Made by a program: the position numbers and the translations under genes | Shown here: one piece after another, positions 35,262 through 51,100 of the stretch | Layout of the letters: every line of letters starts with the position of its first letter | Numbering within the stretch: the stretch's first letter is position 1 | The notes under the pieces: generated by a model | Databases searched by the model: none | Told to the model about the DNA's origin: nothing | The model's input: the letters and a program-made list of their open reading frames with translations, nothing else | Virus record (IMG/VR): IMGVR_UViG_3300038679_000357 | Span: 64,001-128,000 of that record | DNA length: 64,000 bases | Reading direction: 5' to 3' (one strand) | Source: a virus | Lineage: Duplodnaviria; Caudoviricetes

Positions 35262-35879
35262 TTAGTCCTCCATTGACTTTGACAACTTGTCGTAATACGC
35301 CTGCTTGTCTTTTTCATACCGTTCCTGATCTCCGCGAAACATATGGTGGTGAATGCATACCGGAATCCTGCCAATTCCGCCAACACCAGACAATTCGATG
35401 GATTGTACAACGCCTTCGTGTACTCGACCAGAAAAGAAGATTTGCTCCATCCGCTTAAACATTCTCGTCTGCATATCTGGATAGAACGGAGAAGTAAAAT
35501 ATGGGGAGTCATGATCATGGGATGGATAATGGTTCTTCCGGATCATCTGATAAGCCACTACGCCAGACTCATCAGCCATATCCATAGCCCTTCTTATAGC
35601 ATCTGTCTTTTCGCCCTCTAAGTGTTCGTCGGCGTCAAGCATCAAGATCCAAGACCTATTGCATTTGGCGATTAGGAAATTTCTAGCTGCTGAAAAATCA
35701 TCAATCCACTTGAAGTCGTATATCTCGGCACCCATTCTCTCGCAAATTTGCTTCGTGGAATCTGTAGATCCAGTATCCACTACGATCAGTTCATCGACCA
35801 CCCTACATACGGAAAGTATGCTGCGTTCGATATATTTTTCTTCATTCTTGAGTATATAAGCCAATGATATTCCACTCAT
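35262..35879 (-). CDS. Glycosyltransferase family 2 (GT-A)
   Basis: ISLAYILKNEEKYI, VVDTGSTDST, WIDDFSAARN, LMLDADE, FSGRVHE. Confidence 0.92.
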   Translation of the reverse strand: MSGISLAYILKNEEKYIERSILSVCRVVDELIVVDTGSTDSTKQICERMGAEIYDFKWIDDFSAARNFLIAKCNRSWILMLDADEHLEGEKTDAIRRAMDMADESGVVAYQMIRKNHYPSHDHDSPYFTSPFYPDMQTRMFKRMEQIFFSGRVHEGVVQSIELSGVGGIGRIPVCIHHHMFRGDQERYEKDKQAYYDKLSKSMED

Positions 35880-37396
35880 TGCAGAAGTCCTACAACTCTA
35901 TTGACAGCGCTTTTCCAAGTATATCTATCAAGAACCTCTTTACGAAGACGATTAGCCCGTTCCGCGACAACTTCATTTCCAGATACGACCATCTTCATGT
36001 GCGCAGATGCCTGCTCTACCTGCTCCATTCCAACTCGCCATAACTTCTGACCTTGATAAAAATACGAAATTGCAGACAATTCCTGTGGGCAATCCTCAGT
36101 TCCAGTACACTCTACCACAAACGAATTATCACGCCTAAGATACTCCGACATACCTGAATGAAGGCATGATATTACAGGCAATCCACGGGCAGCAGCCTCA
36201 ATCTGCGTTAAACTAAACCCCTCTCCTCTCGAAAGGTGAACGTAACAATCACAGGAGTCATATAACGATGGCATATCATCGATAGGAATGACGTTGTTAC
36301 ACAGCAATACTTGCGGAAGATCAGTTTTTCTATCCAAGTAGCGATCGAGAGTACCCTTAACAGTGTCAATGGAATACTGCGTCGAAATCACGAGACATAC
36401 ATCGTCTTCTTCATGAAATGACCTTACGAACGATTTAATGATAGCGTCGTATCCTTTTCTTAAATTCCACTGAATCACCGTCAAAAACTTAAATTTACCA
36501 ATACCATCAGTTGGTGGGCGACCATAAACACTTTTACATGTCGATAGATCATAGGATCTTTTTGATGACGAATATAATTTTTCATCAATCCCCAAGGGGA
36601 CTACTTTAATTGGTTTTCTAACACCTCCATTCCGAAATAATTCAGCGTTAGCTACAGACGGAACCCATACCTCATCACTATATGTATTGCAATAACGAGA
36701 AAAATCACCATGCAGCGTCGATGTCTCCATCATTGTAAAAAATATTGATTTTCCGCCATGGCGTCCATGCGGCATTGGAGTAAATGCATAAACTTTCGGA
36801 TATCGACTATCATGTGGGCGTAATATAGATAGCGAGCGAAGAAGTTTTTCCGTTTTCTTATCAACCTGCGCTACAGTAGGGTAAATATCTGGTATTGGAA
36901 CAAAACCACGACAAAAAAGACGTGACACAATCTCGCGGTTCATATTGGCGTATCCACCTGCATCAAGAAAAGAGCCCCACCATCCAACTGGTTTAGCAGA
37001 AGAAAAAAAGCGTCCATCGCGCATTTCTTCTAAGGTAGAAGCGTCAATCTGCCTGATGCTAGGAACCATCTCCTCAAACAAACGATGAAAATTACCATCA
37101 ACTCGAAACTTTGCTTGCCCCATTCTTTTTTGCCGAATAATATTACGAGATTTATCAACTTCACTTTTCGGCAATAAAAACAGGCGACCATCAGTAGATT
37201 CAGTTCCTATTGGAATATCATCCTCAAATATAATTTTATAGCCTGGATGAGCTTCAGGAAAATCAGCAGTAATGGAAGAAATTGATACCCCAGGATACAT
37301 CAGAGAAACGTCAGTAGTCGAAAAAACAGTCCCTCTTGCATTATCGTTGGAAACAGCTAATATCCGCAAGGAATCAATTTCATATACGACGAACAT
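35876..37396 (-). CDS. Glycosyltransferase family 4 (GT-B) with N-terminal extension
   Basis: GGYANMNR, TMMETS, DEVWVPS, VVPLGID, NLRKGYD, HLSRGEGFSLTQIEAAARGLPVI. Confidence 0.9.
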   Translation of the reverse strand: MFVVYEIDSLRILAVSNDNARGTVFSTTDVSLMYPGVSISSITADFPEAHPGYKIIFEDDIPIGTESTDGRLFLLPKSEVDKSRNIIRQKRMGQAKFRVDGNFHRLFEEMVPSIRQIDASTLEEMRDGRFFSSAKPVGWWGSFLDAGGYANMNREIVSRLFCRGFVPIPDIYPTVAQVDKKTEKLLRSLSILRPHDSRYPKVYAFTPMPHGRHGGKSIFFTMMETSTLHGDFSRYCNTYSDEVWVPSVANAELFRNGGVRKPIKVVPLGIDEKLYSSSKRSYDLSTCKSVYGRPPTDGIGKFKFLTVIQWNLRKGYDAIIKSFVRSFHEEDDVCLVISTQYSIDTVKGTLDRYLDRKTDLPQVLLCNNVIPIDDMPSLYDSCDCYVHLSRGEGFSLTQIEAAARGLPVISCLHSGMSEYLRRDNSFVVECTGTEDCPQELSAISYFYQGQKLWRVGMEQVEQASAHMKMVVSGNEVVAERANRLRKEVLDRYTWKSAVNRVVGLLQ

Positions 37397-37404
37397 CTAT
37401 CCAC

Positions 37405-40400
37405 CTATTTGTATGTGGATACGGAAGCCTTTCGGATAATGGAGACGGTTCCTCCGTCCACGGAAACGTTATCCTCGCTTCCCGCTCTCTCTTCTATAAT
37501 ATACACCGCGTTCAAGTCTCCCTTCATCGAATATTCTGCAACGGCATCTCCATACACAGTCGTAAATACAATGTAATCACCAACATGAAACCTCCCAGAC
37601 ATCTTTGTAGACAAAGAAATTGAGGATATTTCACGGAAGGATCTATTACGTATTGTAATCATATTTCCGTTAGTTGTATACCATAAGTCTACCTTAGCTC
37701 TAATTACCCCAGAATGTTCGAATGCGCTTCCGGCATCAAAGGAATACATGGAAGAATAAGTTGAATCAAGCCTGTGAATTATGTATGAAGATCCATCCAG
37801 CACACAAACATACAATGAATCATCCATGTGATGGAATGATGTTGGCGTTCCAGACACCCCTAAAACAACATTTCTTTCGATCAAAGTAAGATTTTCCCGC
37901 AATGTTGAGATAAAGATCCCAGAAGAAGAGTAGCCTAGAACATAAATAACGGTATTATGGACGGTTTGATCGACGAGAACGTCTTCCGCTGTGCCAATCA
38001 AATTATTATAAACCACAGATTGCTTTGCAAGAGTTTTTGATGGCTCCATGCCCAATTCTGAAAAATCAGTTTCCAAAGCCGAATAAACTGGTCTTCTGTC
38101 ATTATCATACATGTATGATCGGTCTACGGGACGATACATTGTTCCAATATAATCCAGAGACGCCGATGAGGGACCTTTGTTCACGATATCTACTGCGATA
38201 CGGAATAACGGTCGCATAGATAGCGTAACGGTAAATACGTCGGACAAAGGTTGCGCCTGTCCAAATACGAACGTTCCAGAATTACTGTCATAAGTGTATT
38301 CTCGATCTGAAACAATACTGCCGTATTTATCAGATTCCGTCACCCGGTACATTTCTACAACGTAATCCTGAGACCAACCGCCATACGCGGTGATATAGGT
38401 CGCTGCATCTTTCCTTACGAGCAATTCATTAACTCTACTTAGAACGATGCCACCATAGCCATCCTTCATTGCTGGTTGCTGATCTGACCAATACCATTCC
38501 CGTCCAACGTCGTCTGAATGTTTCACTCCATATGATACAGATGATGTAACTGGAACATTTCCATGGTGAGAAAAGATAATCTCGCCAACGTATCCATCCT
38601 TCCCATCATTTACTGGTATAGGCTGGAACATCAAAGTATAACGACGTGGTTCGTAATATTCGTACGCGGCAGAAACAAATGATGGCGACTCGAACGTATC
38701 TGGATCTCCACGGAAAGAAACGCGATACTCCATATACCTATTCACCATTCCGTATGATGACAAATCAAAATCTGTTCCAACTCCAATATCAATCCATTCT
38801 CCGAAATTCACCCCATCAGAACTAAAGCGGATTGAAAAGGTCAACCCCGAAACCCCAGGTGTCGTAACCATAAACGAAAGACGATCAAACAACTTTTCCT
38901 CACCAAGATCAATGATATTTGAATACCACCCAGTGACTAAATCAAAAGAGGGAGAATTAACAATAGAATCAACAACATATCCTGGAATAGAAACTGCATC
39001 CTCCACGTCTGAGACTTCCACTGGAAATCCGCCAAGAGAAGATGTAAATTTACGTACAACAAGATCATCATACGGTTCAGTGCGTTCAAGTTTCACAAAA
39101 ACCAATTCAACTGGATCTTCTGCATCTACCGATTTCAACTCAGACACAGCTTGATCATATGATAAATCTGAGTTGGATTCACCTCCGTCAGAAACAACAA
39201 CAACAACTTTCTTTGACGATGATAAATCCTGAGAAAAAGTGACCATTCTGCGAGCTGCTAATGCCAACGCATCATTCAACCTACTTGGTCCGATTTCAGA
39301 GAAGCTTTCAAGAACCTTATTGAAAATCAGCTCGTCAGTCTCTGGTTTAACGATCAATGATGGCGACGAAACAGAAGGGAACCAATGCATATCGCTTGTT
39401 ACAAGTGATTTATCTATGGCTTTCAATTCTTCCGGAAGACCTGGAATGAATGCTTCAGTCTTCAACACGGCTATAGTGCGAGGAGCATTATCATTACCGA
39501 CGACAACAATCCCATTATCATCTTTCTCTGTTTTAGATTCAATATCGTTATACTCATAAAAGCCAAAGTCTGCAAAAATACGAGTTCCATCCTCTACCGG
39601 TATATCGCCACCAGAAGTTCTAATGTAAGCATGAAATAGCATTGTATATCCTGGATCATATCCATGCATTCTGGCAGAAAATCCTGAAACAATCTTCCCG
39701 TCAACATATTGTGAAGTTGTCGGAATAATCTCTAATACATATCCCGAATCTCCTCCGGTGGTAGCAACTCCAGGGTAGCTAAATGCATAGTTATCCAACG
39801 ACCTGGATATACGAGAACCATCAGGTAAAGTTTTTCCATCGTCGTAATTAGCTTGAGCCTTGACTGCAAAAGCAACCGTTTTATTGGAAATTGGACCAAT
39901 ACCGATCACGGCAACCGACTTTACTATATGTGAATGAAGATTTGACACCCCGCCAGAAAGATCATATACCTCTTCAGACATCGGTGAAGTGGCATAAATA
40001 TTAACGGAATGAACGTGGTCCGGTATAGAGACGCCTTTTGAGTAGGTTACTGTACTTGTGGTAACTCCCTTTCCATTATCATCCACCGACATTTCATGAT
40101 AATGATCAAAATCAAATGAAGTTCGAAGATAATGCGTAGCAGCCTCATCAAAATCAAGAGAACATACAGTCCTATCCTCAAATCGTGAAAACTCAACGCC
40201 TTCCTTCGTTATCTTAACTGATCCAACGTCAAAAGAAACCATCGGTAAAGGATTATCGGAACGACCAACAATAAAGGTATCATGCCAAGTGAGTTCAGCT
40301 ACTGCAACATAACGACTTACCCCATCTCGCTTTAATGGATGGCTATAGGTATCATATCCTGAAGACTTGGGAGACTCTCCATTCGGCTGTTTTCGCCAAT

Positions 40401-43400
40401 CATTCTGCTGATACTCAGACTTATCTACTGGCTCAATATACACAGTAACGCCAAATGGCTCTACAAGATTGACTCTCGGTTTAGGTATTTTTGCCTGACC
40501 GCCACTTATTGTTTCAGTCAAGAACGATACGGTGTCGCTCTCTATTCCTATTCCAGACAAACCATATTTGCGAGATTTAGTGAATAAAGAAATAAATGCA
40601 CATTCCGGAGAATTACACGGATTTGGATCGTCTGGATCTGATTCACGATATGGCGGACGACCGATAAACATGTTAGAGTATAAGCGGTTGCTAACCCAAC
40701 CATAGGGAACGTCAGTATCGTGCTCAACTGGACCTTCAGAAGGCTCTCTACTTGACCATTTTGGCAAGCGTGTACCAACAGTCAATCCAGAACCACTATA
40801 AACCACGCCCATTGCAGACTGAATCAAGTCATCAGCAACTGTGTCAATATAAGGGAAATCTCTAAAAGATGACGCGGGAAGGTCTCCATTTATCGTAACA
40901 TAATCTATTCCGTCTGCCCATATCCTTTTCTGTCCGTGATAAACAGAGGATGGATTTGTATTGTAGCCAGAAGCGTAAAAATAGAAGTTCCCGCCAGACT
41001 GAGCTTGTTCACGCATCCATTCTACTTGACCTTCTTTCTTGGCGGTGAAGCCACGATATGTGCAAATAGCAGTTATCCCCTCAAACTCCCCCCTACCATT
41101 ATCTTCTAATGCGGCAAGACCGGTTGGCGCAGGTATCGGCTCATGAGGACCGAGAAGAACACCGTCAGCCACGCCTGACTCAGTTTGACTGACGGAAGGG
41201 GACATTTGCGTGCTTGTTGCCTCAAAATTAACCATAGTGCCATCAGAAACTGGCTCCACAGCCTTCCACGATACGTAAGCGCCTATATTATGCCTCGTTT
41301 CACCATCCGCCACGGATGGACCCATACCAGACATAGTTATAACAACTGGATTCCTATAATAAATTTTCTGCTTATTAACGACCTTAGATATACCATCATC
41401 CATTTCGAAAGATGCGTGGATATCAAGCAATGCAACTCTATTGAGAGGAGGTAGAGTAATTGTTGCAATTCCAGAAACAACTTTAACGGTATACTGCACA
41501 ACGTCAAGAAGATCATTGGCGAGAAGTGACTGTTCAGTAGAAATAGTGTACGGATCATCGTCATTAACTGTGCTAAAAACATTCTCTCCACCACCCATTG
41601 CCTCATTATCTCCGCACCCATCCAAGTCTGGAAGATCGTCATCTGCAGCTAATCTAGTATCTATTGTTCTTCGCGCATCATAAATTGCTACTCTCAATAC
41701 ACCATTTGCCGGGAAGCCCTTGTCTGTAATATTGTATGTAATGTTTATGTCATATGGATCTGTGGCGTAAGTCCCAGGAACAATTTGATCGTAAGTTGAT
41801 ACAGCTCCATCTTCATCGACTGATTGACACTGCTGAAAAACTGTTGTTCTATCCACGGCATTGGTGATATATATCGGACAGGCGAAATAAATATCAGTAC
41901 CCTTAACAAGGATAACTGCATTCCGATTACCAGAATCATCAAACATTGTAACCACTGGATTGACAGTATATTTTTTAGCGAGATACCTTACAGTTGATAA
42001 ACTTCCTATTTGCTGCTCTGTCAATTCAGTTGCGAATGACTTCATTTGAGTTGATGCGTACCCACCAATCGATTCCACCTTATGATCCATGGTGAAATCA
42101 GGAATGCCGTCATAATATACTGGCTCTTCAACAACCTCGTTTGACGTCGAAGATGACTGTACATAATCGGAGTCATCCACTCCCTCTTTCATCTCCCCCT
42201 TTTCCATATCTTCAATCGCCTTGGCGCGAACTTGATCTCGTTCACTTGGGTTGAACATCGACTTAGCCAAAGCATCTCGAACTGATGAATTTTCAAACCT
42301 ATCTTCTGTTATCGGACAGACTCTAACGGCGGACCATCCATTTTTGGTCATAATCTCTACTGACGAACGCTTCACTCTTGTTGGATCTGTATTGTAAAAA
42401 TCAGGATTTGCAGATGGATCTACCTGGGGTGGATCTAATGGGTCCAACAACGAAGGATCGTGAAGTGCGTGCGTGAAAATCGGTGTGATATCAACAAGGT
42501 TTACCGTCATCGGAAGTTTTTCCGACACATTGACATCTACTTTAGCGCCAATTTCCGTAGATGGAGTTACAATAGCTGCATGTTTTGACATCAAAAAAGA
42601 CGACGGCATCGCATCCGCGATTCCGACCACTCCAGATTGATCGATAGATGATACCGTTGTTGCATGATAGGCTACAGTCTCTCCTTCAGCAACTTTGTAG
42701 GCGTTCCGGTCATCATCAATAATATCAATGGAATCACCACGCTTTATAGATGAAGCATCCTGCGGAGATATATATATGATTGTTGCCCCAGATGAAGCAT
42801 CTGAAATTAAATAAATTGTTTTCTGTTTGGCTGCATCGCTATTCATCTCTTCAGTTGGCTCTTTATCAACATAAAACTCTACTATTGTTCCGTCTGGAAG
42901 CGGCTCTCCTTCTGCATCAACTGTATCAATTTCCAGGAGTGCGGTTTCATCCATGAAGTACAATTGATAGAATTCCCACGATGACATCGGCTTAAACACC
43001 CACTCTATATGAGCGCCATTTGCAGTCTGAACAAAAAATACAATATCAGATCCATTAAGTGGATCGACTACATAAAATTCAAACGCATCAGTTTTATCCC
43101 ATCCAGTAAGTGATTGAGCAGTATACCTTTCGATCATCGCCCCATTAGAAAGTGATGTCCCGATATATACTTCAGGATCAATTACTATTGCAATCGAAGA
43201 AACATAAGTGATATTTTTCGGCTGCTCAATAGAAGAAATAGAAGATATTCGAACTTGATCATCAACAATAAACGTATGCTCACCAACAACTATAGAGGTA
43301 TCACCTGGCTGAATATCTGATTCTGGTCGAGAAACAGTATAATCGTTAGAAAATCCGTAAACATACCTAATAGCATCCCTTCCAGATGAAGTTGAAACGG

Positions 43401-44589
43401 ACAAACACGCTTCTCCATTTGGTCCTTCGTCTGCAGTAGATATTGACGGAGAGTCAGATTGCCATACTGGTTTCCACCCATCATCTACTGTTTGAGTGCG
43501 AAATTCCGACCAACCGGTATCAAATCCATACACAAGATACTTTGATGAGGATAAACTCCTGAATCCGTACGCGACAACTCCTGTTCCCATATGAGCACGG
43601 ACGTCTCCTGATAACGGATTCCCAAAGGCATCCACTCCTGTTAATGCAGTGTAGTCGTCAACACTTACTGTTACTCCTCTCAACTTACCACTCATAGATA
43701 ATGATAACGGAGATAATGGTCTAGCTCCAAATTGTACAAAATCATACGTTACGTTACGAGGAAACTTAGACTTGAAAGACGACATAATTCCATTGACAAT
43801 CTCTTTTCTAAGAGAGAAGCGATCATTCCACCCCATACTTCCAGACGAATCAACTACATAAGATAAATGCAAATCCATTGGAATTAATCTAATTGAGTCA
43901 ACGGATGGTGATGGATAATATGGACCAGGACCAGAAACGATCATCGTATTGTAAAATGTTCCAGAAGACAAAACGCTTTTTCCAGATTGACTGCCAGACG
44001 AAAGTATTGCTGGCGGGGTAACAATCATGTGTCCAGGCATTGGTCCAATTATTTCGGAATAAGCGTCAAAATCTGAAGCAGCACGAACAGTGCGATGAGC
44101 CCCTAAAATATCCTCCCATGTAGAGCCTCCGTCAGAACTCATGGAGCAACCGTTATCTCCGTCAACTATAGCATAAGCCCAAGCGGCATAGTTGTTTTCA
44201 TCACCACCAGACTGCCACACAGTAAGACACAATCCATTTTCAGGAGTAGTCATCTCTGGTATGGATAAGTTAAATTTATACCAGTCATTTTGCTGTATCG
44301 CTGAAGATAAAATAGAAGCAGAAGATAAAATTGAACCAGTTGGATGTCCGTTTTCGTCAGACTCCCGCAATTCCGCCCACATCGTAAAAGAAAGATCATT
44401 ATCTGATCTAGCTCTGATGAGATATATGGCTACCCACCCGACAGATATCAACTTCTGCACAAATGACAATTTCTGAGATAAAATTCTTGGAGTAGATGGG
44501 TTAAAATTGACAGCAGAGTGACTTGTCGCAACGAATTTTGTTGCGGACCAGCCCGATACACCGTATTTTCCTAAAACTTCGTTGGACAT
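37405..44589 (-). CDS. Giant virion-like adhesin: interrupted vWA domain, Big_1/Ig-like repeats, HxH module
   Basis: 2394 aa; YVVDSSGSM MIDAS near aa 245; GPSRLNDAL and VVVVSDG near aa 1770-1800; DAEGEPLPDGTIVEF and PVSDGTMVNF Ig-like motifs. Confidence 0.7.
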   Translation of the reverse strand: MSNEVLGKYGVSGWSATKFVATSHSAVNFNPSTPRILSQKLSFVQKLISVGWVAIYLIRARSDNDLSFTMWAELRESDENGHPTGSILSSASILSSAIQQNDWYKFNLSIPEMTTPENGLCLTVWQSGGDENNYAAWAYAIVDGDNGCSMSSDGGSTWEDILGAHRTVRAASDFDAYSEIIGPMPGHMIVTPPAILSSGSQSGKSVLSSGTFYNTMIVSGPGPYYPSPSVDSIRLIPMDLHLSYVVDSSGSMGWNDRFSLRKEIVNGIMSSFKSKFPRNVTYDFVQFGARPLSPLSLSMSGKLRGVTVSVDDYTALTGVDAFGNPLSGDVRAHMGTGVVAYGFRSLSSSKYLVYGFDTGWSEFRTQTVDDGWKPVWQSDSPSISTADEGPNGEACLSVSTSSGRDAIRYVYGFSNDYTVSRPESDIQPGDTSIVVGEHTFIVDDQVRISSISSIEQPKNITYVSSIAIVIDPEVYIGTSLSNGAMIERYTAQSLTGWDKTDAFEFYVVDPLNGSDIVFFVQTANGAHIEWVFKPMSSWEFYQLYFMDETALLEIDTVDAEGEPLPDGTIVEFYVDKEPTEEMNSDAAKQKTIYLISDASSGATIIYISPQDASSIKRGDSIDIIDDDRNAYKVAEGETVAYHATTVSSIDQSGVVGIADAMPSSFLMSKHAAIVTPSTEIGAKVDVNVSEKLPMTVNLVDITPIFTHALHDPSLLDPLDPPQVDPSANPDFYNTDPTRVKRSSVEIMTKNGWSAVRVCPITEDRFENSSVRDALAKSMFNPSERDQVRAKAIEDMEKGEMKEGVDDSDYVQSSSTSNEVVEEPVYYDGIPDFTMDHKVESIGGYASTQMKSFATELTEQQIGSLSTVRYLAKKYTVNPVVTMFDDSGNRNAVILVKGTDIYFACPIYITNAVDRTTVFQQCQSVDEDGAVSTYDQIVPGTYATDPYDINITYNITDKGFPANGVLRVAIYDARRTIDTRLAADDDLPDLDGCGDNEAMGGGENVFSTVNDDDPYTISTEQSLLANDLLDVVQYTVKVVSGIATITLPPLNRVALLDIHASFEMDDGISKVVNKQKIYYRNPVVITMSGMGPSVADGETRHNIGAYVSWKAVEPVSDGTMVNFEATSTQMSPSVSQTESGVADGVLLGPHEPIPAPTGLAALEDNGRGEFEGITAICTYRGFTAKKEGQVEWMREQAQSGGNFYFYASGYNTNPSSVYHGQKRIWADGIDYVTINGDLPASSFRDFPYIDTVADDLIQSAMGVVYSGSGLTVGTRLPKWSSREPSEGPVEHDTDVPYGWVSNRLYSNMFIGRPPYRESDPDDPNPCNSPECAFISLFTKSRKYGLSGIGIESDTVSFLTETISGGQAKIPKPRVNLVEPFGVTVYIEPVDKSEYQQNDWRKQPNGESPKSSGYDTYSHPLKRDGVSRYVAVAELTWHDTFIVGRSDNPLPMVSFDVGSVKITKEGVEFSRFEDRTVCSLDFDEAATHYLRTSFDFDHYHEMSVDDNGKGVTTSTVTYSKGVSIPDHVHSVNIYATSPMSEEVYDLSGGVSNLHSHIVKSVAVIGIGPISNKTVAFAVKAQANYDDGKTLPDGSRISRSLDNYAFSYPGVATTGGDSGYVLEIIPTTSQYVDGKIVSGFSARMHGYDPGYTMLFHAYIRTSGGDIPVEDGTRIFADFGFYEYNDIESKTEKDDNGIVVVGNDNAPRTIAVLKTEAFIPGLPEELKAIDKSLVTSDMHWFPSVSSPSLIVKPETDELIFNKVLESFSEIGPSRLNDALALAARRMVTFSQDLSSSKKVVVVVSDGGESNSDLSYDQAVSELKSVDAEDPVELVFVKLERTEPYDDLVVRKFTSSLGGFPVEVSDVEDAVSIPGYVVDSIVNSPSFDLVTGWYSNIIDLGEEKLFDRLSFMVTTPGVSGLTFSIRFSSDGVNFGEWIDIGVGTDFDLSSYGMVNRYMEYRVSFRGDPDTFESPSFVSAAYEYYEPRRYTLMFQPIPVNDGKDGYVGEIIFSHHGNVPVTSSVSYGVKHSDDVGREWYWSDQQPAMKDGYGGIVLSRVNELLVRKDAATYITAYGGWSQDYVVEMYRVTESDKYGSIVSDREYTYDSNSGTFVFGQAQPLSDVFTVTLSMRPLFRIAVDIVNKGPSSASLDYIGTMYRPVDRSYMYDNDRRPVYSALETDFSELGMEPSKTLAKQSVVYNNLIGTAEDVLVDQTVHNTVIYVLGYSSSGIFISTLRENLTLIERNVVLGVSGTPTSFHHMDDSLYVCVLDGSSYIIHRLDSTYSSMYSFDAGSAFEHSGVIRAKVDLWYTTNGNMITIRNRSFREISSISLSTKMSGRFHVGDYIVFTTVYGDAVAEYSMKGDLNAVYIIEERAGSEDNVSVDGGTVSIIRKASVSTYK

Positions 44590-44612: not shown

Positions 44613-44622
44613 ATTGTACAAC
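44613..44622 (-). promoter_or_regulatory. Putative class II promoter -10 variant (GTTGTACAAT)
   Basis: Intergenic, 23 nt upstream of ATG 44589. Confidence 0.4.
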
Positions 44623-45161
44623 TACGCCGGAAGTAGTGAAATTTCAGCGACAACATCTCCAATATGGGTAGTCGATCCACTACTGGTTGTTACGCCAAAT
44701 TGAAACTCTGTACCAGCGGGATAAGCTAGATTACCAAGATCAAAGTTAGAAACGTTATTTACAGCAGAAACAGATAGCGTAACCCCAGAAAACATAACAT
44801 TCGGATCAGAAGATGTACCAAGTCTTACTACCGGAGAAGCCAATAGTGGATCAGATACTGTTTTATGGCGTACAAATAATTTTGATAGGATTGCTACGGC
44901 TCCGGATGGAACTATATAAATCGACGTCTGCGCCGCAACTGTCATATCAACAGATAGTATGTTTTGACTAGAAACATTTCCATGATACGGAAGTAAATTC
45001 CATTCAGTTGAATCATCCCCAATCTTAATTCGATAAAACATCGGTCCAAAGCCATTGTCCTCAATACCAACTTCTCCAAACAAGAGAATAGGATTTGTCG
45101 AGGTCCACTGTGCCGACGTTCCACGCCTTACTTTAATTCTTGCAATTTTGGTCTCTGACAC
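44622..45161 (-). CDS. Small fibre-associated protein with Mtd/hyaluronidase-type N-terminal domain
   Basis: RIKVRRGTSAQWTSTNPILLFGEVGIE...KIGDDSTEWNLLPY. Confidence 0.8.
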   Translation of the reverse strand: MSETKIARIKVRRGTSAQWTSTNPILLFGEVGIEDNGFGPMFYRIKIGDDSTEWNLLPYHGNVSSQNILSVDMTVAAQTSIYIVPSGAVAILSKLFVRHKTVSDPLLASPVVRLGTSSDPNVMFSGVTLSVSAVNNVSNFDLGNLAYPAGTEFQFGVTTSSGSTTHIGDVVAEISLLPA

Positions 45162-45175
45162 GTACGCACCATATG

Positions 45176-48100
45176 TTATGGATTTCCACCGTCTATCTCA
45201 ATATCCCAGATAACCGTATCTGGAAATCCTCCGTCAAACACATCTTCCAATACGGAAGTCGGCAATCCTCCATCAAGAATATCCCACGGCTCTTCCGAAT
45301 TACTAGATGAACTAGACGAAGAACTGAATGAACTACTGCTCGAAAGACTTGAACTACTACTCGAAAGACTTGAACTTACACTGGATGAACCAATCTGTCT
45401 GCTATATTTGTCAGATTGATATACATAATACCCAGAAGAAGTAGAAAAAGCCACTTCAGACGAAGAAAGGACGTAAACTCCACCAAGATATGAAGGAAGA
45501 GGGTTATATTGTTTTGAGTCTTCAAGATCAATAGCCTCTGTCCAAGTATCTCCGTTATCAAATGATGAATATATTCGATGACCAGAGCCAACGGCGTATT
45601 CCATTCCACCAACAAATCCGATACCATTAACTTCCTCAATTAACGGAGAAAGGTAATGTCCATGCGTTAAGCTGTCACCTACCGCATCCCTAGACTCAGA
45701 CGAAACAATTGAAAATTCTCCAGCCTTAATAGAATGAGTATGACTCCACTCCGCGTTTTTCCTAATAAACACAACGTTCGATACCGAAGGAGCGCTTATC
45801 ACTTGAGTGGATGGAGGAACTTGAATGATCCCAGGAAATACCGCAAGGACATCAAACTTATACGAGAGACCATCAGTACAGTCAATTTTCATTACATCCC
45901 CGGAAGAAGCCATAGAGCTGTCACTCACACCCACTAAGGTGTCACCATAGGCAATCCCTGACGTAACTGTTGTACTTCCGGCTTCATACTCAAAATAATA
46001 CGCTCTTGCGTACGAACCATTATCAATGGTAAAATCACATGGAAGAGGCGAGGATAACCCGACGATAGATCCTGAAACGGAGACAACTTCTGATAAAAAT
46101 GACGTGCGATTAGAAACAACTTCCAATTTACACCCGACAACAACACCAAATACGGATACTAATTCTAATTCATTTGCCCCCTTCAACGCATCGTATGATA
46201 AAAGAGAGTTAGATGAAATGAACTTACTGTCATATTCCATGGCGACCGTCTTTCCAAAACCAACTGTAGACAAATGGATTCGGAAACCTACACCAACCTT
46301 ATTCCCATCATTTCCTGAGATATCAATTTTCCCATCCTCTCGTGCCACGAAAATAGACGAAGAACTATGACGAACAACTCTCAGCCGATAGCGCACAAGA
46401 GGTTGTTTTGGATCGTATGCCGTCAGCCAAAATCCTGTAAATAAATCAGTCTCTGATGACAGCCATGGATCAACCAACTGCCATGCTCCAGAAAGCAATA
46501 GTTCTACCTCAAACGAGGTGGAAGATGGTATCGCTGTTATATCACCGATAATTGGTCCTGAAATAGGAGTGACTTGATGCCGATGTCCATTGTTCCAAGA
46601 CGAAAAAACATTCGAAAAAGAAGGTATTGACGACAAGGGGACTATAGAAAGACTAAAGTCAATTCCAGAGTACAGAGTGTTAAAAACAGAATACGACGTT
46701 AACTCTCCGTCAACTCCAATTGCCTCATACGATTCTCTAACGCTAATGATTGTTTCATCATTTGATACAATCTGTAATTTTCCTCCATCGGGAATAGAAT
46801 CTACGCCGTTGAACGACAATTGATTTCCAGACAACTCATTAACCTGTCTCTGAGAATCAAAATCAACCACAATTGGTATATTTCCAACAGAGTTAGTGCA
46901 ATAAACTGTCGCTCCGACACGAAGAGTGGAAATCGTATCGTATCCTTCGGGAGCTACTACTTCAGATGATAACTCAATAAAATTGGCGGTATTTTTAACG
47001 ATCTTGTAAACGGCTATATCAGATCTTGGCAATCCATATTCAGACTCCTGTGGTTCAACAACAAGGGAACCTCCATTAAGTAGGGACGGCTGCATCGTTC
47101 CCACATAATCAACATACAGCCTGATTCCAGATCCAGACAAGCGAAATCCGTATCCATTAACGGCTGATGACGCATCTCCAGAAACAACCATGTCAACAGT
47201 GCCATCAGGTTTGGACGCCGAATTTGAGACGACTGTAAGAGGTGGTATAGACGCAATAAACGATATTTTCCATTCCACAACCTCATTTACTACAACCGCC
47301 TTAGACAATTTAGCAGACAACCTATAGGAAGAACTTAACCCTGGCGACGGAACGACATACTCGACTACACCAGAAATACCAACGCTCTCTATAACGGCTG
47401 CATTTCCAATCGCCGAGATCCTACCATCCCTACGCCTGTCATAAGAAAATGTGCCACCTGAATCCCATTTCAAACCGTCAGAAGTTCCAACATGGATTCT
47501 TCTTTGACGATCCTCTCTAATGCAGTTCATCCTATATGGCAGAACGGTAAACGTTCCACCAGACGATGACATCATGGATTCCCCAAATACGACAATTGTT
47601 GACCCGCTATTTGAGACAACTCTCGCTTCACTCCCGCCGACTGCCATCATCCTTCCAACAAGACTTCCGTCCGGAGGCGGTCCAAGATTAAAATCAACCG
47701 CAACAGATACATTCAAAGCGTCAGTAATCGACATTGAAAGAATGTTCCCGGTCAGTGAAACTGAAGAGAATAATTCGTTCCACCGATTTCCAGTCCCAGT
47801 ACACACATAAACTCCAGAACGATTTCCGTCAGCAGATTTGGCACACGCTGCGATAGATCCGTTCATAAGCAATCCGTATGAAACTACAGTCATATCGGAA
47901 AGTTTATCGCTAGTTGAGTACAAGCTTCCCTTCAGCCATGACACCCCCTTATCATCACTATACGACAAGAATCCATCACCAGATACAATCAGTGTATTTA
48001 CAAATGAAGGATTTGACGGATTGACTACACCGTCCCATTTGTTCCACCAATATGATGTCCCATCATCAGACCTTATTGCTCCCCACCTGGCAGCAATCAC

Positions 48101-51100
48101 AGTAGGAATTCCACCTACTGAATTAACTGATACTTCACTCCACAAAACAAGATTAACATCAGTCGTTTTATACAGCCCAGTTGATGACGCTACGTATAAT
48201 GTGGTCGCATCAAACTGAAGAACATCATATACTTTTTCAAATTCAGGAACCCTTATCCAGTTTGACTCCAACGAAACAAAATCAAGAACATACAGTCCTG
48301 AATCGGAGGCTGAGAAGCACATATTAGAAAAAATGCCAAAACCAGGAAGAATGGTTGATAACCTTGACGATCCAGCGCGTGGACCGTCAACATCATATAT
48401 TGCTAAACTAGCCATGTCGCCAGCATTCCTGTCGATGTAACGATCTATGTTCATTGGATCGCCAGGAATGTCATTGTAATTAAAACGAGTGAGGAAAGTG
48501 TCTATAAAATTGGACGCGACTCCAGGAAACATATAATCTGCAGCAACAGAAAGATGCATAAGATTAGCCAGATAAACATCTGACATTCTCCATCCGAGAC
48601 CTGTATTTTTTGTAGATAGAGCATCTTCCACTTCTTCATGAACGAGAACGCCTACATTTGTCAATTTCCCATCATACACGGTAATCCGAACATCATCAGA
48701 TGACATAACCTGTGGAACCAAGTCTACATCAGCCTGAGACGGAACGTAGTAAGCTGACATTTCATCTAGTGTTACGCTGGAGTTAGACTTCGAAGAATAA
48801 GACAAAAAGACAGTTTTTGTTATCGTTCCATCCACCCACATAAGCCTCAATCTTCCTGATGCAGGTAGATTAGAAAGCAGCGATAGCTCAACAGTTAATG
48901 TGGTATCTCCAACTTGCAGATCTGAGGCAGTTTTTCCAGAGACCGAGAAAATAATATACCCGGCGTTGTCTACCTCTACGTATCCAGTCCTCCTGTCAAT
49001 ACCGCTCCTAGTGGAAAGAACCAAACGATCAGCAATATATAGGTCATACCCAATGCCATCCTTCCATCCACCCTGTTCTGGTCTATAAGAAGATCTGTCA
49101 TACACGCCGTAAACATTGCTTCCGAGATGTATATCTCCACCAAAGTCAACAGACGATCCAGGATAACTTACGTACGTGTTTATCCTCGATGGAATATAGT
49201 CTACCGTGAATGACGACGGCTGTCCAACTCCAAATAACATAGTTTGCGTATATTCGCTTCCGTCAAACGATCCAAAAGAGTTATCGTATCCGACATGGAC
49301 TGAAAACCCATCATATGATGGAGTTGAAGAAACAGCCATCGGAGGAAAAGATCTTGAATCAGACCAAACCCCAAGAGAAAAAACAGATACGATGTCAACA
49401 GTAGATACATACAACTTACCAAATGCAGCAAACACAGTTGTCCATGAAGATCTTGGCTTTTCAACTGTCGTTAATGCAGCCCATGAAACAGCATTAACGC
49501 TTCTAGCAACAGATCCATTTGAGCAAAAGACAGTAATCGTCCTATCAAACTCGTGAGAGTGTCCTAAATATTCTTGAATAACCCCGCCAACCACATCGTG
49601 TGAATGACCAGCATCATGAGATGTCCACCCGTTCAAATCTCCATCAACTGAAATTGAATGAGAATGCCCAGAAACGATCGACGTAGCATCTAAACTCCGA
49701 TCAATCGATACCGAAACTACTTTAGACGGAAGAATCGTGCTGACCCAAGTTTTTCCATAATCAGAAGAAATAGATGAATATTCATCAGAAAAGGCAACGA
49801 TCATCCCGTTCGGGAGGATTTCTATAAAAGATGATCGCTTCCCAGAAACAGGGCGAGCAACCTTACGGAATCCACGTGCAGAACCATGAAGAGAAACATA
49901 AAACCCTGAATCAGACGACAAAGCTGCAAGACCGGACGGAGCACGTTTCATAGCATATACGTACCCAGAAATTGAAGATTCATCAATCGATTCCCATTTC
50001 ACATCTGCGTCATCCGACCAAAACACTCCAGACGAAGATACGGCAAAATACCTATTTGCTGACGATGCATATCCAGATGGCACATTACGTTGTAGGGAAA
50101 TGTCTTTTACAGCATATCGGCTAAAGTCATTGACAACCCGGTAAAAAGTTTCCGGTTCCTCTTCTGACCCCTCTTCTTTTTCTTGAGGTATTTCTGCAAC
50201 AACCACTTCGCCTGGCTTAATATCAGATGCAGTTCTGATGGCTGTATACCCATATTTAGTCAACTTATACGTAGATACATACCTTAAAAGTATTCTATCT
50301 ACACCTCCTGGAACTGCCGGATTACGAAGCCCAACAAAAAGATAAGTATCACCTGGCGCAGATACCATCATTGTCGCTTCAGCTATCTGTTTGCTGTACG
50401 CAGAGTTAATATCAACAGCAATACCAGTCTCTCTCCCATAAGTAGTTACAGCCTCAGACAGAGCCGAATAAATATCTCCAGGATTCGTCTTAACTTGAAC
50501 TCCGTTAACAGAGAACAAATACGCCCCACCAGAAGGAATCATCCATAAGCCATCAGACGTAGAAACCAAAACGTTTCCTAACCCATCATCACACACGTGG
50601 TAAACCGATCTGGCGTCAGTAGCCATTCCACTAGATGGAATCTGATATATCATACCGTCATACGACTGAAGTAGTGACGGAATAGGCTCAGCTATTTCTG
50701 CAAATCGCCCCATGTGATCAATGACAGGAATGCGTTCTGGATCGAACTTACCGGCTGCGATCTTTGACGCTGGGATGTATAAAATATTATCCTGTGGCAA
50801 TCTCCCTTGAACCTCAGAATTGGTCAGAACCTCGACCTCAACAACATCAACATGTGCTTCAGACGACAAGGTAACAACGATATCAGAAGCGGCTGGAAGG
50901 ACAAACTTAAAGGTATCTCCCTCATGAACGAGGCGATACTCACCCACCATAGCCTGAGTTTTAAGCTCAGACACTGGAGTTGCAACGTCTGGAAGAATGA
51001 TGTTTGTTGAATCTGGATAAGCAGTGTAATAGGCAATCGCCGCCCGAAGCATGAATCGATATAAACTTCCCTCTTCTGAGGTAAACACCCAATCTCCACT

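What the first reader, a model, noticed from the sequence alone, without database searches (positions are those of the whole stretch)
39181..43860. vWA domain interrupted by a ~1,470-aa insertion
Seen: the first half of a vWA (LSYVVDSSGSMGWND..FKSKFPRNVTYDFVQFG; MIDAS DxSxS at ~43837-43851) lies ~4.4 kb from the second half (GPSRLNDALALAARRM..KKVVVVVSDGG, 39181-39295). Between them are intimin/invasin Big_1-like motifs (DAEGEPLPDGTIVEF; PVSDGTMVNF..SPSVSQTESGVA; PVEDGTRIF) and an HxH module. Known: vWA needs DxSxS, a downstream Thr/Ser and the Asp of (T/S)DG in one fold; pilus adhesins such as RrgA have inserted arms, but these are far smaller. Inference: a giant looped-out arm closed by a metal-dependent vWA clasp, an integrin-like adhesin on a phage.
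Basis: partly seen in the sequence, partly recalled or inferred. Interest (0 to 1): 0.72.

Follow-up and report, generated by a model that had tools for sequence, protein, structure and literature searches.

The report
Split vWA domain in phage tail giant
A 2,394-residue tail protein of an uncultured 255-kb phage carries one metal-binding vWA domain cut into two pieces by about 1,440 residues of inserted domains; this layout recurs in about 65 related protein clusters, and the size of the insert is far outside the published examples I found.

Summary
One ORF (37405-44589, minus strand, 2,394 aa) holds vWA beta1-alpha1-beta2 with DxSxS at residues 237-292. The rest of the fold, beta3 to alpha6 with the MIDAS Ser and Asp, lies at residues 1735-1880.

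- **Profile matches:** the two pieces hit complementary parts of the Pfam VWA models.
- **Co-folding:** they co-fold with canonical vWA contacts (ipSAE 0.80, best control 0.15).
- **Conservation:** all five MIDAS residues are kept in 60 of 60 divergent relatives.
- **Insert size:** 1,435-1,900 aa in the main clade and up to about 2,400 aa in a second clade.
- **Relatives without the insert:** P0139 and P0117 have the same vWA and following domain uninterrupted.
- **Two-gene relatives:** in at least one contig the N-half and C-half sit in separate ORFs, so the fold must form from two chains.

The insert leaves the beta2-beta3 loop, near the 38-aa ARM1 of the pilus adhesins RrgA/GBS104. It contains intimin-like Ig domains, other beta-sandwiches and a triple-HxH module.

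The gene is the last giant gene downstream of the tape-measure gene, and glycosyltransferase genes follow it in every locus examined.

The "giant insertion in a vWA" reading is supported. The "metal-dependent clasp" and "adhesin" readings are untested.

The scan noted this same stretch once more in an overlapping window of the same genome, not on other DNA.

The parts
37405..44589 (-). Whole ORF, 2,394 aa (P0001), a distal tail protein
   Evidence: Nine close homologues of 2,187-2,726 aa align end to end.
43915..44589 (-). N-terminal jelly-roll / lectin-like domain, residues 1-225
   Evidence: AlphaFold2 model of residues 1-1200. VIA-align: phage phi812 baseplate chain 9euf_0 Z 13.9 (rmsd 3.3, 157 aligned) and Bxb1 tail tip 9d93_Pa Z 11.6. 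Conserved in nearly all full-length family members.
43714..43881 (-). vWA N-half, residues 237-292: beta1 (240-247), alpha1 (260-275), beta2 (280-287)
   Evidence: Pfam VWA_2 positions 3-49 of 107 and PF00092 positions 5-49 of 174. DSSP of the model. Interface residues 237-292 in the co-fold.
43837..43851 (-). MIDAS loop 1, DxSxS (D247, S249, S251)
   Evidence: D247 60/60, S249 60/60, S251 59 Ser plus 1 Thr in the 60-sequence alignment.
39388..43713 (-). Insertion, residues 293-1734, about 1,440 aa of mostly beta-sandwich domains
   Evidence: Models. Foldseek: strings of macroglobulin/Ig-like domains. Alignment occupancy 0.63-1.0 across the family, so the insert is homologous throughout.
41005..41880 (-). 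Intimin/invasin-type Ig-like (Big) domains inside the insert, residues 904-1195
   Evidence: VIA-align: intimin 6tqd_A and 6tpl_B Z 10.1, invasin 1cwv_A Z 9.7, intimin 1f02_I Z 9.7 (rmsd 2.3, 93 aligned, 23% identity).
39910..40122 (-). Triple HxH module inside the insert, residues about 1490-1560
   Evidence: H1496, H1498, H1525 and H1527 are invariant, and H1552 and H1554 are kept in at least 90% of 60 sequences. A similar HxH...VDDxGxG...HxH stretch is in the neighbouring giant protein.
38950..39387 (-). vWA C-half, residues 1735-1880: beta3 (about 1735-1743), alpha2, alpha3, beta4 (1795-1800), alpha4, beta5, alpha5, beta6, alpha6
   Evidence: PF00092 positions 66-130 of 174. PDB profile hits are vWA proteins only. 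DSSP and pLDDT 85-93. Co-fold interface.
39187..39285 (-). MIDAS loops 2 and 3: S1769 (GPS) and S1800-D1801 (SDG)
   Evidence: S1769 59 Ser plus 1 Thr, D1801 60/60, position 1800 36 Ser and 24 Thr.
38110..38937 (-). Two beta-sandwich domains that always follow the vWA ('postC'), residues 1885-2160
   Evidence: Most conserved block of the family; follows the vWA directly in the uninterrupted relatives too. Weak F5/8 type C (discoidin) Pfam hits on the equivalent part of P0130 and P0115.
37408..38037 (-). C-terminal five-bladed beta-propeller, residues about 2185-2394, present only in a subclade
   Evidence: VIA-align: glutaminyl cyclase 3mbr_X Z 20.0 (rmsd 2.8, 204 aligned); phage phi11 host-recognition device 5efv_A Z 14.2. 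Alignment occupancy only 0.2-0.4 in the family.
35876..37396 (-). GT4 glycosyltransferase gene directly downstream
   Evidence: Pfam Glyco_trans_1_4 E 1.9e-12. Glycosyltransferase genes follow the vWA gene in L002, L005, L006, L007, L009, L011 and L013.
44622..45161 (-). 179-aa gene directly upstream with a tail-fibre-type N-terminus (Mtd_N)
   Evidence: Pfam Mtd_N E 6.6e-6 and several tail-fibre PHROGs. Syntenic in L005.

Best explanation
P0001 is a distal tail (tail-tip or fibre complex) protein of an uncultured jumbo phage. Its conserved core is a single vWA/MIDAS domain that was interrupted long ago, in the beta2-beta3 hairpin on the MIDAS face, by a multi-domain insertion of about 1,440 aa. 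The insert holds Ig-like/intimin-like beta-sandwiches and a triple-HxH module.

After translation, beta1-alpha1-beta2 (residues 237-292) and beta3 to alpha6 (1735-1880) pack into one ordinary six-stranded vWA fold. This brings the N-terminal jelly-roll, the vWA, the two following beta-sandwiches and the C-terminal propeller together into one body, from which the insert projects next to the metal site.

The complete MIDAS (D247, S249, S251 from the first piece; S1769, D1801 from the second) most likely holds Mg2+ or Mn2+ and binds a carboxylate of a ligand. My split of the odds on the ligand is:
- about 45% a host-surface ligand;
- about 35% an acidic residue of another tail protein;
- about 20% no ligand, the metal being only structural.

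The variable propeller is the likelier host-specific receptor binder.

Shown here: the split, its conservation, the uninterrupted and two-gene relatives, and the position in the tail module. Predicted only: the co-fold and the domain folds. Inferred: metal binding, the ligand, and the shape of the insert.
For: 1. Complementary Pfam matches of the two halves, and PDB profile hits that are vWA proteins only.
2. Co-fold of residues 225-315 with 1725-1890: ipSAE 0.80 (three runs 0.83, 0.80, 0.78), best of three controls 0.15. That mark was reached by 58 of 80 solved complexes and 2 of 110 mismatched pairs. Runs agree in at least 67% of contacts, and partner pLDDT is at least 67. The contacts are those of a vWA: beta1 241-246 runs parallel to 1793-1799 (beta4), residue 285 (beta2) touches alpha3 1774-1778, 1735-1743 lie against beta2, and alpha1 lies against alpha6.
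3. In 60 family members of 19-70% identity, all five MIDAS residues are kept.
4. About 65 cluster representatives carry the split, with gaps of 1,435-2,420 aa. The second clade shares collinear parts of the insert.
5. A profile of the joined halves plus postC matches P0139 (634-1089) and P0117 (656-1172) as one continuous domain across the junction. P0139 has Pfam VWA_2 positions 3-106 of 107.
6. Both AlphaFold2 models (pLDDT 82 and 87) show only beta-rich domains around each half.
7. Tail context: tape-measure gene upstream, tail-fibre-like neighbours, and an N-terminal domain like phage baseplate and tail-tip domains.
Against: - The co-fold is a prediction, and a pass can reflect the model's memory of the vWA fold. 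That shows likeness to the fold, not that this protein closes in cis.
- No full-length model could be made; the limit is 1,200 aa.
- Each half alone is below Pfam's gathering score.
- No metal, ligand or virion localisation has been measured, and the phage is uncultured.
- The two-gene relatives show the fold can form in trans, so closure between chains is not excluded here.
- The family has no match in 50,697 deposited phage records, so the tail assignment rests on gene order and fold likeness only.
Confidence: 0.7

Rival explanations
1. Closure between chains: the N-half of one copy pairs with the C-half of another copy. The split vWA then works as an oligomerisation or chain-joining device rather than closing a loop within one chain.
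For: In L009/L010 the N-half (residues 51-115 of a 1,546-aa ORF, E 8e-18) and the C-half (P0112) are in separate ORFs with an ATGA overlap. In L012 the two ORFs are separated by TAA, a GGAG ribosome-binding site and an ATG in another frame. L011 shows the same division. In L011 and L012 the upstream ORF is cut by the contig end, so only insert-homologous sequence, not the N-half, is seen there. Trans assembly therefore appears to be used by relatives. With 1,440 residues between the halves, cis has little entropic advantage.
Against: A single chain supplies all three HxH pairs, which fits a monomeric module. The co-fold test cannot tell cis from trans.
Confidence: 0.2
2. The MIDAS is a docking site inside the virion. 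It binds an acidic residue of a neighbouring tail protein, for example the acidic D-x-x-DGG repeats that end the upstream 2,349-aa protein after its poly-Ser tract, and so fastens this giant protein to the tail.
For: The vWA, the N-terminal domain and postC are the most conserved parts of the family, while the C-terminal propeller is clade-specific. That is the usual pattern of a conserved anchor and a variable receptor binder. The upstream protein ends in poly-Ser followed by three acidic DGG peptides, and its close homologue in L005 does too.
Against: The DGG tail is absent from the upstream proteins in the more distant loci L006 and L007, although the MIDAS is conserved there. No binding test was run.
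Confidence: 0.3
3. The vWA is a cofactor of a MoxR-type AAA+ chaperone used for tail assembly, as proposed for some jumbo phages and for the Acidianus two-tailed virus (PMC7824862).
For: vWA proteins often pair with MoxR ATPases. The jumbo-phage survey reports such pairs.
Against: No AAA_3 (MoxR) match in the 255-kb genome, while the same search matched all 14 control genomes, 10 of them above the cut-off. The gene sits among fibre and adhesin-like genes and carries Ig-like, lectin-like and propeller domains.
Confidence: 0.03
4. Chance, or two decayed remnants: the two stretches are unrelated motif matches or leftovers of two different vWA domains and do not form one fold.
For: Each Pfam match is weak and below the gathering score.
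Against: The profile coverage is complementary and collinear. All MIDAS residues are kept 60/60. Relatives match continuously across the junction. The co-fold stands far above its controls.
Confidence: 0.02

Closest known systems
vWA domains of pilus-tip adhesins with inserted arms: RrgA (S. pneumoniae, PDB 2WW8), GBS104, and P. gingivalis Mfa5
   Same: A bacterial-type vWA with a complete MIDAS and extra segments that leave the fold on the MIDAS face and form a lid or cradle over the site (PMC7835359, PMC7893114). ARM1 of RrgA/GBS104 is inserted within beta-strand C, close to the beta2-beta3 site used here. Both are set among Ig-like domains of adhesin type.
   Different: ARM1 is 38 aa and ARM2 is 98-123 aa (PMC7835359). 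Here the insert is about 1,440 aa (up to about 2,400 aa in relatives) and is itself a chain of some ten domains. There is no ARM2: beta4 (1795-1800) runs into alpha4 (1811-1821) with only a short loop. No sortase or isopeptide features were looked for. This is a phage tail protein, not a pilin.
Integrin beta-subunit I-like domain with its specificity-determining loop
   Same: A MIDAS-bearing vWA fold with an insertion in the betaB-betaC region that shapes the ligand-binding face. The placement of that loop is from my own knowledge of the integrin alphaVbeta3 structure and was not checked here.
   Different: The integrin loop is a few tens of residues. Integrins have additional ADMIDAS and SyMBS metal sites, a hybrid-domain piston and an alpha-subunit partner, none of which was tested or seen here.
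vWA domain in the baseplate/fibre protein gp164 of Bacillus thuringiensis jumbo phage 0305phi8-36
   Same: A vWA domain in the fibre/baseplate region of a large phage, next to a protein with an intimin-type domain (PMC2147016).
   Different: That vWA domain is described as a contiguous central domain. No sequence similarity to P0001 was found in the phage collection.
Large nested insertions in other proteins, such as the SI3 insertion of cyanobacterial RNA polymerase beta'
   Same: A multi-domain insertion inside a host domain that is conserved within a lineage (PMC13114784).
   Different: SI3 is 630-690 aa. In a survey of 48,263 insertion events, inserts have a median of 115 aa against 199 aa for hosts and are smaller than the host in 77% of cases (PMC13114784). 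Here the insert is about 7 to 11 times the size of its roughly 210-aa host.
Uninterrupted relatives found here: P0139 (1,108 aa) and P0117 (1,884 aa)
   Same: The same vWA followed by the same postC beta-sandwiches, with the same gene neighbourhood (large proteins upstream, glycosyltransferases downstream).
   Different: The vWA is contiguous, about 210-280 aa. None of the insert's segments is detectable in them.

Membership tests
vWA / MIDAS domain (Pfam PF00092, PF13519) | DxSxS motif at the end of beta1 | tested here: met
   D247-S249-S251. Kept 60/60, 60/60 and 59 Ser plus 1 Thr.
vWA / MIDAS domain (Pfam PF00092, PF13519) | MIDAS Thr/Ser in the alpha2-alpha3 loop (GGT-type) | tested here: met
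   S1769 in G-P/S-S; 59 Ser plus 1 Thr. Aligns to the GGT of ITIH4.
vWA / MIDAS domain (Pfam PF00092, PF13519) | MIDAS Asp after beta4 ((T/S)DG) | tested here: met
   D1801 60/60; position 1800 is Ser or Thr in all. Aligns to the TDG of ITIH4.
vWA / MIDAS domain (Pfam PF00092, PF13519) | One alpha/beta/alpha sandwich with beta1 next to and parallel to beta4, beta2-beta3 at the edge, and alpha1 beside the last helix | tested here: met
   By prediction only. The co-fold contacts are 241-246 with 1793-1799 in parallel register, 285 with 1774-1778, 1735-1743 against 279-292, and 258-272 against 1865-1877; ipSAE 0.80 against a best control of 0.15. No coordinates could be inspected.
vWA / MIDAS domain (Pfam PF00092, PF13519) | Score above Pfam's curated gathering cut-off | tested here: inconclusive
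   22.6 bits against 27 for VWA_2; 18.2-18.9 against 23.8 for VWA. Each half can match only part of the model. The uninterrupted relative P0139 reaches 25.8 bits over positions 3-106 of 107.
vWA / MIDAS domain (Pfam PF00092, PF13519) | Binds a divalent cation at the MIDAS | not testable with these tools
   Needs protein: ITC, a crystal structure or cryo-EM with Mg2+ or Mn2+.
Pilus-tip vWA adhesins with arms (RrgA / GBS104 / Mfa5) | Insertion at beta-strand C (ARM1) on the MIDAS face | tested here: met
   The junction lies between beta2 (280-287) and beta3 (about 1735-1743). In P0139 the same place is a short beta2-beta3 connection. Only the position matches; the size is about 38 times larger.
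Pilus-tip vWA adhesins with arms (RrgA / GBS104 / Mfa5) | ARM2 insertion between beta4 and alpha4 | tested here: not met
   Only about 10 residues separate beta4 (1795-1800) from alpha4 (1811-1821).
Pilus-tip vWA adhesins with arms (RrgA / GBS104 / Mfa5) | Adhesion to a host ligand through the vWA | not testable with these tools
   No host or ligand is known.
Phage distal tail / receptor-binding proteins | Encoded downstream of the tape-measure gene among fibre genes | tested here: met
   Tape-measure match (phrog_167, E 1.4e-7) at L008 11091-15305. Tail-fibre PHROGs and Mtd_N in neighbouring genes.
Phage distal tail / receptor-binding proteins | Domains of the kind seen in solved phage tail tips or receptor binders | tested here: met
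   Residues 10-176 against the phi812 baseplate chain (Z 13.9) and the Bxb1 tail tip (Z 11.6). The propeller against the phi11 host-recognition device (Z 14.2). This is fold likeness only.
Phage distal tail / receptor-binding proteins | Presence in the virion | not testable with these tools
   The phage is uncultured and no proteome is available.

The most novel reading that the evidence does not exclude
The split vWA is a self-complementing joint. Its two pieces, on one chain here and on two chains in some relatives, snap together only when the giant appendage is assembled. Because the metal is held by residues from both pieces, divalent cations or a ligand carboxylate at the MIDAS would gate assembly, or trigger a conformational change that passes through the 1,440-aa insert to the tail tip. 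This would be an integrin-style switch built into a phage tail.
Probability: 0.12. Interest if true: 0.85.

Novelty: new variant of a known kind. Interest (0 to 1): 0.62.

Why it matters
Domain insertions are common but usually small. A recent survey gives a median insert of 115 aa, smaller than the host domain in 77% of events (PMC13114784). Here a roughly 210-aa metal-binding domain tolerates and conserves an insert 7 to 11 times its own size across a large, deeply diverged family of giant phage tail proteins.

Three natural states are on hand for comparison: uninterrupted, split in one chain, and split across two genes. That is a ready-made natural experiment on how a Rossmann-like fold assembles from distant or separate pieces. 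It also points to a conserved metal site as a handle for studying the tail appendages of uncultured jumbo phages. Those appendages have no matches in the deposited phage records searched here.

Tried and rejected
- **Phage-record and direct family searches:** tblastn of P0001 against 50,697 phage records gave no match. phmmer against PDB sequences gave none. PHROGs gave none.
- **ESM Atlas:** the feature search with the insert gave no usable hit (one search was a size slip).
- **PDB profile search, residues 1-1200:** only a weak KOW-like hit.
- **phmmer of the uninterrupted vWA of P0139 against the PDB:** nothing significant; the best vWA-like row was the S. sanguinis PilB pilin at E 0.29.
- **Foldseek and VIA-align on the two 1,200-residue models:** the lists were filled by the propeller and by Ig-like strings, so the vWA halves themselves were not tested by fold search.
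- **Paralogy with the neighbouring 2,349-aa protein:** rejected. BLASTP found only the short HxH stretch (E 0.49).
- **A conserved acidic DGG tail as MIDAS partner:** found only in the close relative, not in distant loci.
- **MoxR partner:** no AAA_3 in the genome.
- **L013:** the ORF upstream of P0099 gave no match to insert segments, so that contig is not counted as a proven two-gene case.
- **Joined halves:** not submitted for folding, because a joined sequence is not the window's own.
Full report
**Observation**

The span 39181-43860 lies inside a single ORF, 37405-44589 on the minus strand, of 2,394 aa (P0001). The window is bases 64001-128000 of a 255,142-bp virus record that IMG/VR classes as a provirus, 97% complete.

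- Pfam VWA_2 matches residues 244-291 to profile positions 3-49 of 107 (E 1.7e-4).
- Searched as separate pieces, residues 220-420 match PF00092 positions 5-49 of 174, and residues 1720-1900 match positions 66-130 of 174 (E 0.0019 and 0.003).

These are complementary, collinear parts of one domain model, about 1,440 residues apart.

- The second MIDAS loop is G-P-S1769 and the third is S1800-D1801.
- A profile of residues 1201-2394 built from 60 relatives finds only vWA proteins among all PDB sequences: ITIH4 (E 0.0017), alpha2delta-1, complement C2 and VWF A domains. These align GsS to GGT and SDG to TDG.

**Do the halves make one fold?**

Residues 225-315 and 1725-1890 were given as two chains with their family alignments.

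- The co-fold score (ipSAE) was 0.80 (runs 0.83, 0.80, 0.78), against 0.15 for the best of three controls.
- That mark was reached by 58 of 80 solved complexes and 2 of 110 mismatched pairs.
- The runs share at least 67% of contacts, and partner pLDDT is at least 67.

The contacts are those of a vWA domain:

- beta1 (241-246) runs parallel to 1793-1799 (beta4);
- residue 285 in beta2 touches helix 1774-1778;
- 1735-1743 lie against beta2 as beta3;
- alpha1 packs against the last helix.

A pass for a known fold may come from the model's memory of that fold. That suffices for the claim that the pieces are complementary parts of a vWA, but it does not prove closure in this protein.

AlphaFold2 models of residues 1-1200 (pLDDT 82.2) and 1201-2394 (pLDDT 87.1) show that each half is flanked only by beta-rich domains. 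Neither half has local helices and strands that could complete a Rossmann-like fold.

**Family evidence**

A word-based search gave nine full-length homologues of 44-68% identity. An exhaustive profile search gave 211 proteins at E <= 0.001. I built HMMs of the two halves and ran them on the 158 proteins on hand.

- About 65 cluster representatives, each under 50% identical to the others, carry both halves.
- The gap is 1,435-1,900 aa in the main clade and 1,850-2,420 aa in a second clade (P0105, P0108, P0109, P0118, P0128).
- In a 60-sequence alignment, D247, S249 and D1801 are invariant. S251 and S1769 are Ser in 59 and Thr in 1. Position 1800 is always Ser or Thr.
- The insert is homologous along its length (occupancy 0.63-1.0).
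- The second clade shares segments 831-1440 in the same order. This points to one old insertion that later grew.

**Relatives without the insert**

An HMM of the joined halves plus the following domain matches P0139 at 634-1089 and P0117 at 656-1172 as one continuous domain across the junction. P0139 has Pfam VWA_2 positions 3-106 of 107. P0136, P0134 and P0155 look the same, and none contains detectable insert segments. In P0139 the junction falls in the short connection between beta2 and beta3. The insertion site is therefore the beta2-beta3 hairpin, which in the standard vWA topology lies on the MIDAS face.

**Relatives split into two genes**

- In L009, and in the second assembly L010, a 1,546-aa ORF carries the N-half at residues 51-115 (E 8e-18). 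The next ORF, P0112, carries the C-half. The two overlap by ATGA in different frames.
- In L012 the boundary reads TAA, GGAG, then an ATG in another frame, which is an ordinary gene boundary with a ribosome-binding site.
- L011 is divided likewise.
- In L011 and L012 the upstream ORF runs off the contig, so it shows insert-homologous sequence but not the N-half itself.
- About a dozen further cluster representatives of 843-1,651 aa start after the junction. Some may be fragments.
- In the second clade the N-terminal domain also sits at the end of a separate upstream ORF.

In those phages the vWA would have to form from two polypeptides.

**Anatomy of P0001**

| Residues | Domain | Evidence |
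|---|---|---|
| 10-176 | Jelly-roll, like a domain of a phi812 baseplate chain (Z 13.9) and the Bxb1 tail tip (Z 11.6) | |
| 237-292 | vWA N-half | |
| 293-1734 | Insert, mostly beta-sandwiches; Foldseek sees macroglobulin-like strings | |
| 904-1195 | Within the insert: intimin/invasin-like Ig domains (Z about 10; 1f02_I Z 9.7, 23% identity) | |
| about 1490-1560 | Within the insert: three conserved HxH pairs | |
| 1735-1880 | vWA C-half | |
| 1885-2160 | Two beta-sandwiches that always follow the vWA; weak discoidin-type hits in relatives | |
| about 2185-2394 | Five-bladed propeller (glutaminyl cyclase Z 20.0; phi11 host-recognition device Z 14.2), present only in a subclade | |

**Genomic context**

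- A tape-measure gene lies about 25 kb upstream in transcription order (phrog_167).
- Large genes follow it, some of them fibre-like. P0001 is the last giant gene in this series.
- A GT4 glycosyltransferase gene follows directly.
- At least one glycosyltransferase gene follows the vWA gene closely in every relative locus whose downstream flank is present: L002, L005, L006, L007, L009, L011 and L013.
- The genome has no MoxR-type AAA_3 ATPase.

**How it most likely works**

The protein is a distal tail component. The N-terminal jelly-roll, the vWA, the following sandwiches and the propeller come together as one body, because the two vWA pieces must meet. The insert leaves and re-enters at one hairpin beside the metal site.

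The five MIDAS residues are under strict selection, so a functional metal site formed by both pieces is very likely. What it binds is not known. I put a host-surface ligand at about 45%, an acidic residue of another tail protein at about 35%, and a purely structural metal at about 20%. The variable propeller is the better candidate for host-specific binding.

Whether closure is within one chain or between copies cannot be decided here. The two-gene relatives show that assembly in trans occurs.

**Comparison with what is known**

- **Pilus-tip adhesins.** RrgA/GBS104 have a 38-aa ARM1 within strand C and a 123-aa ARM2. Mfa5 has a 98-aa ARM2. These arms form a lid over the MIDAS (PMC7835359, PMC7893114). 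The site here resembles ARM1, there is no ARM2, and the size is about 38 times greater.
- **Phage precedent.** A contiguous vWA domain was noted in the fibre region of jumbo phage 0305phi8-36 (PMC2147016).
- **Insertion survey.** A survey of insertions gives a median insert of 115 aa and cites the 630-690-aa SI3 of cyanobacterial RNA polymerase as a large case (PMC13114784).
- **Literature.** I found no paper describing a vWA domain with an insert of this size. The searches cover open-access text only.

**Verdict**

The structural reading, one vWA split by a giant insertion, is well supported. The functional reading, a metal-dependent clasp or an integrin-like adhesin, is open. I class the feature as a new variant of a known kind: domain insertion into a vWA adhesin-type domain, at an extreme scale, with natural uninterrupted and two-chain forms.

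**Earlier notes**

Other notes on the tail operon, the glycosyltransferases, the HxH modules and the poly-Ser tails gave leads that I checked in part.

Noticed in passing
window 39910-40122 (P0001 residues about 1490-1560) and window 45176-52225: Three HxH pairs about 28 residues apart in one chain. H1496, H1498, H1525 and H1527 are invariant and H1552 and H1554 are kept in at least 90% of 60 relatives. A similar HxH...VDDxGxG...HxH stretch occurs in the neighbouring 2,349-aa protein. Six His from one chain could form one octahedral metal site, as trimeric fibres do with three chains.
   Followed up: partly
window 45176-45475: The upstream 2,349-aa protein ends in a long poly-Ser tract followed by three acidic D-x-x-DGG peptides. 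The close homologue in L005 has the same ending, but the upstream proteins in L006 and L007 do not.
   Followed up: partly
L002, L005, L006, L007, L009, L011, L013 and window 35262-37396: In every locus examined whose downstream flank is present, the vWA-postC gene is followed closely by glycosyltransferase genes (GT2 and/or GT4), sometimes with methyltransferases or UDP-galactopyranose mutase. This holds whether the vWA is split or not. It suggests a conserved link between this protein and glycosylation.
   Followed up: partly
L009 3-1472 and L007 8665-10014: In the second clade, the domain homologous to P0001's N-terminal jelly-roll sits at the end of a separate upstream ORF (449-489 aa). 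The vWA N-half starts about 50 residues into the next ORF. The single P0001-type protein is thus divided into two or three genes there.
   Followed up: partly
G000:C1:245664-245954 (outside the window; locus L003): A second gene with a vWA_2 match lies elsewhere in the same phage genome: E 9.5e-6, profile positions 2-93 of 107, in an 813-aa open frame.
   Followed up: no
window 37408-38037: The C-terminal five-bladed propeller is present only in the P0001 subclade (alignment occupancy 0.2-0.4). It resembles bacterial and plant glutaminyl cyclases (Z 20.0) and the propeller of the phage phi11 receptor-binding protein (Z 14.2).
   Followed up: partly
L005 (JGI 3300071653, contig of 500,031 bp): The closest homologue (68% identity) lies in the same gene order on a 500-kb contig, twice the length of this 255-kb record. 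That relative is either a much larger phage or a prophage within host DNA.
   Followed up: no
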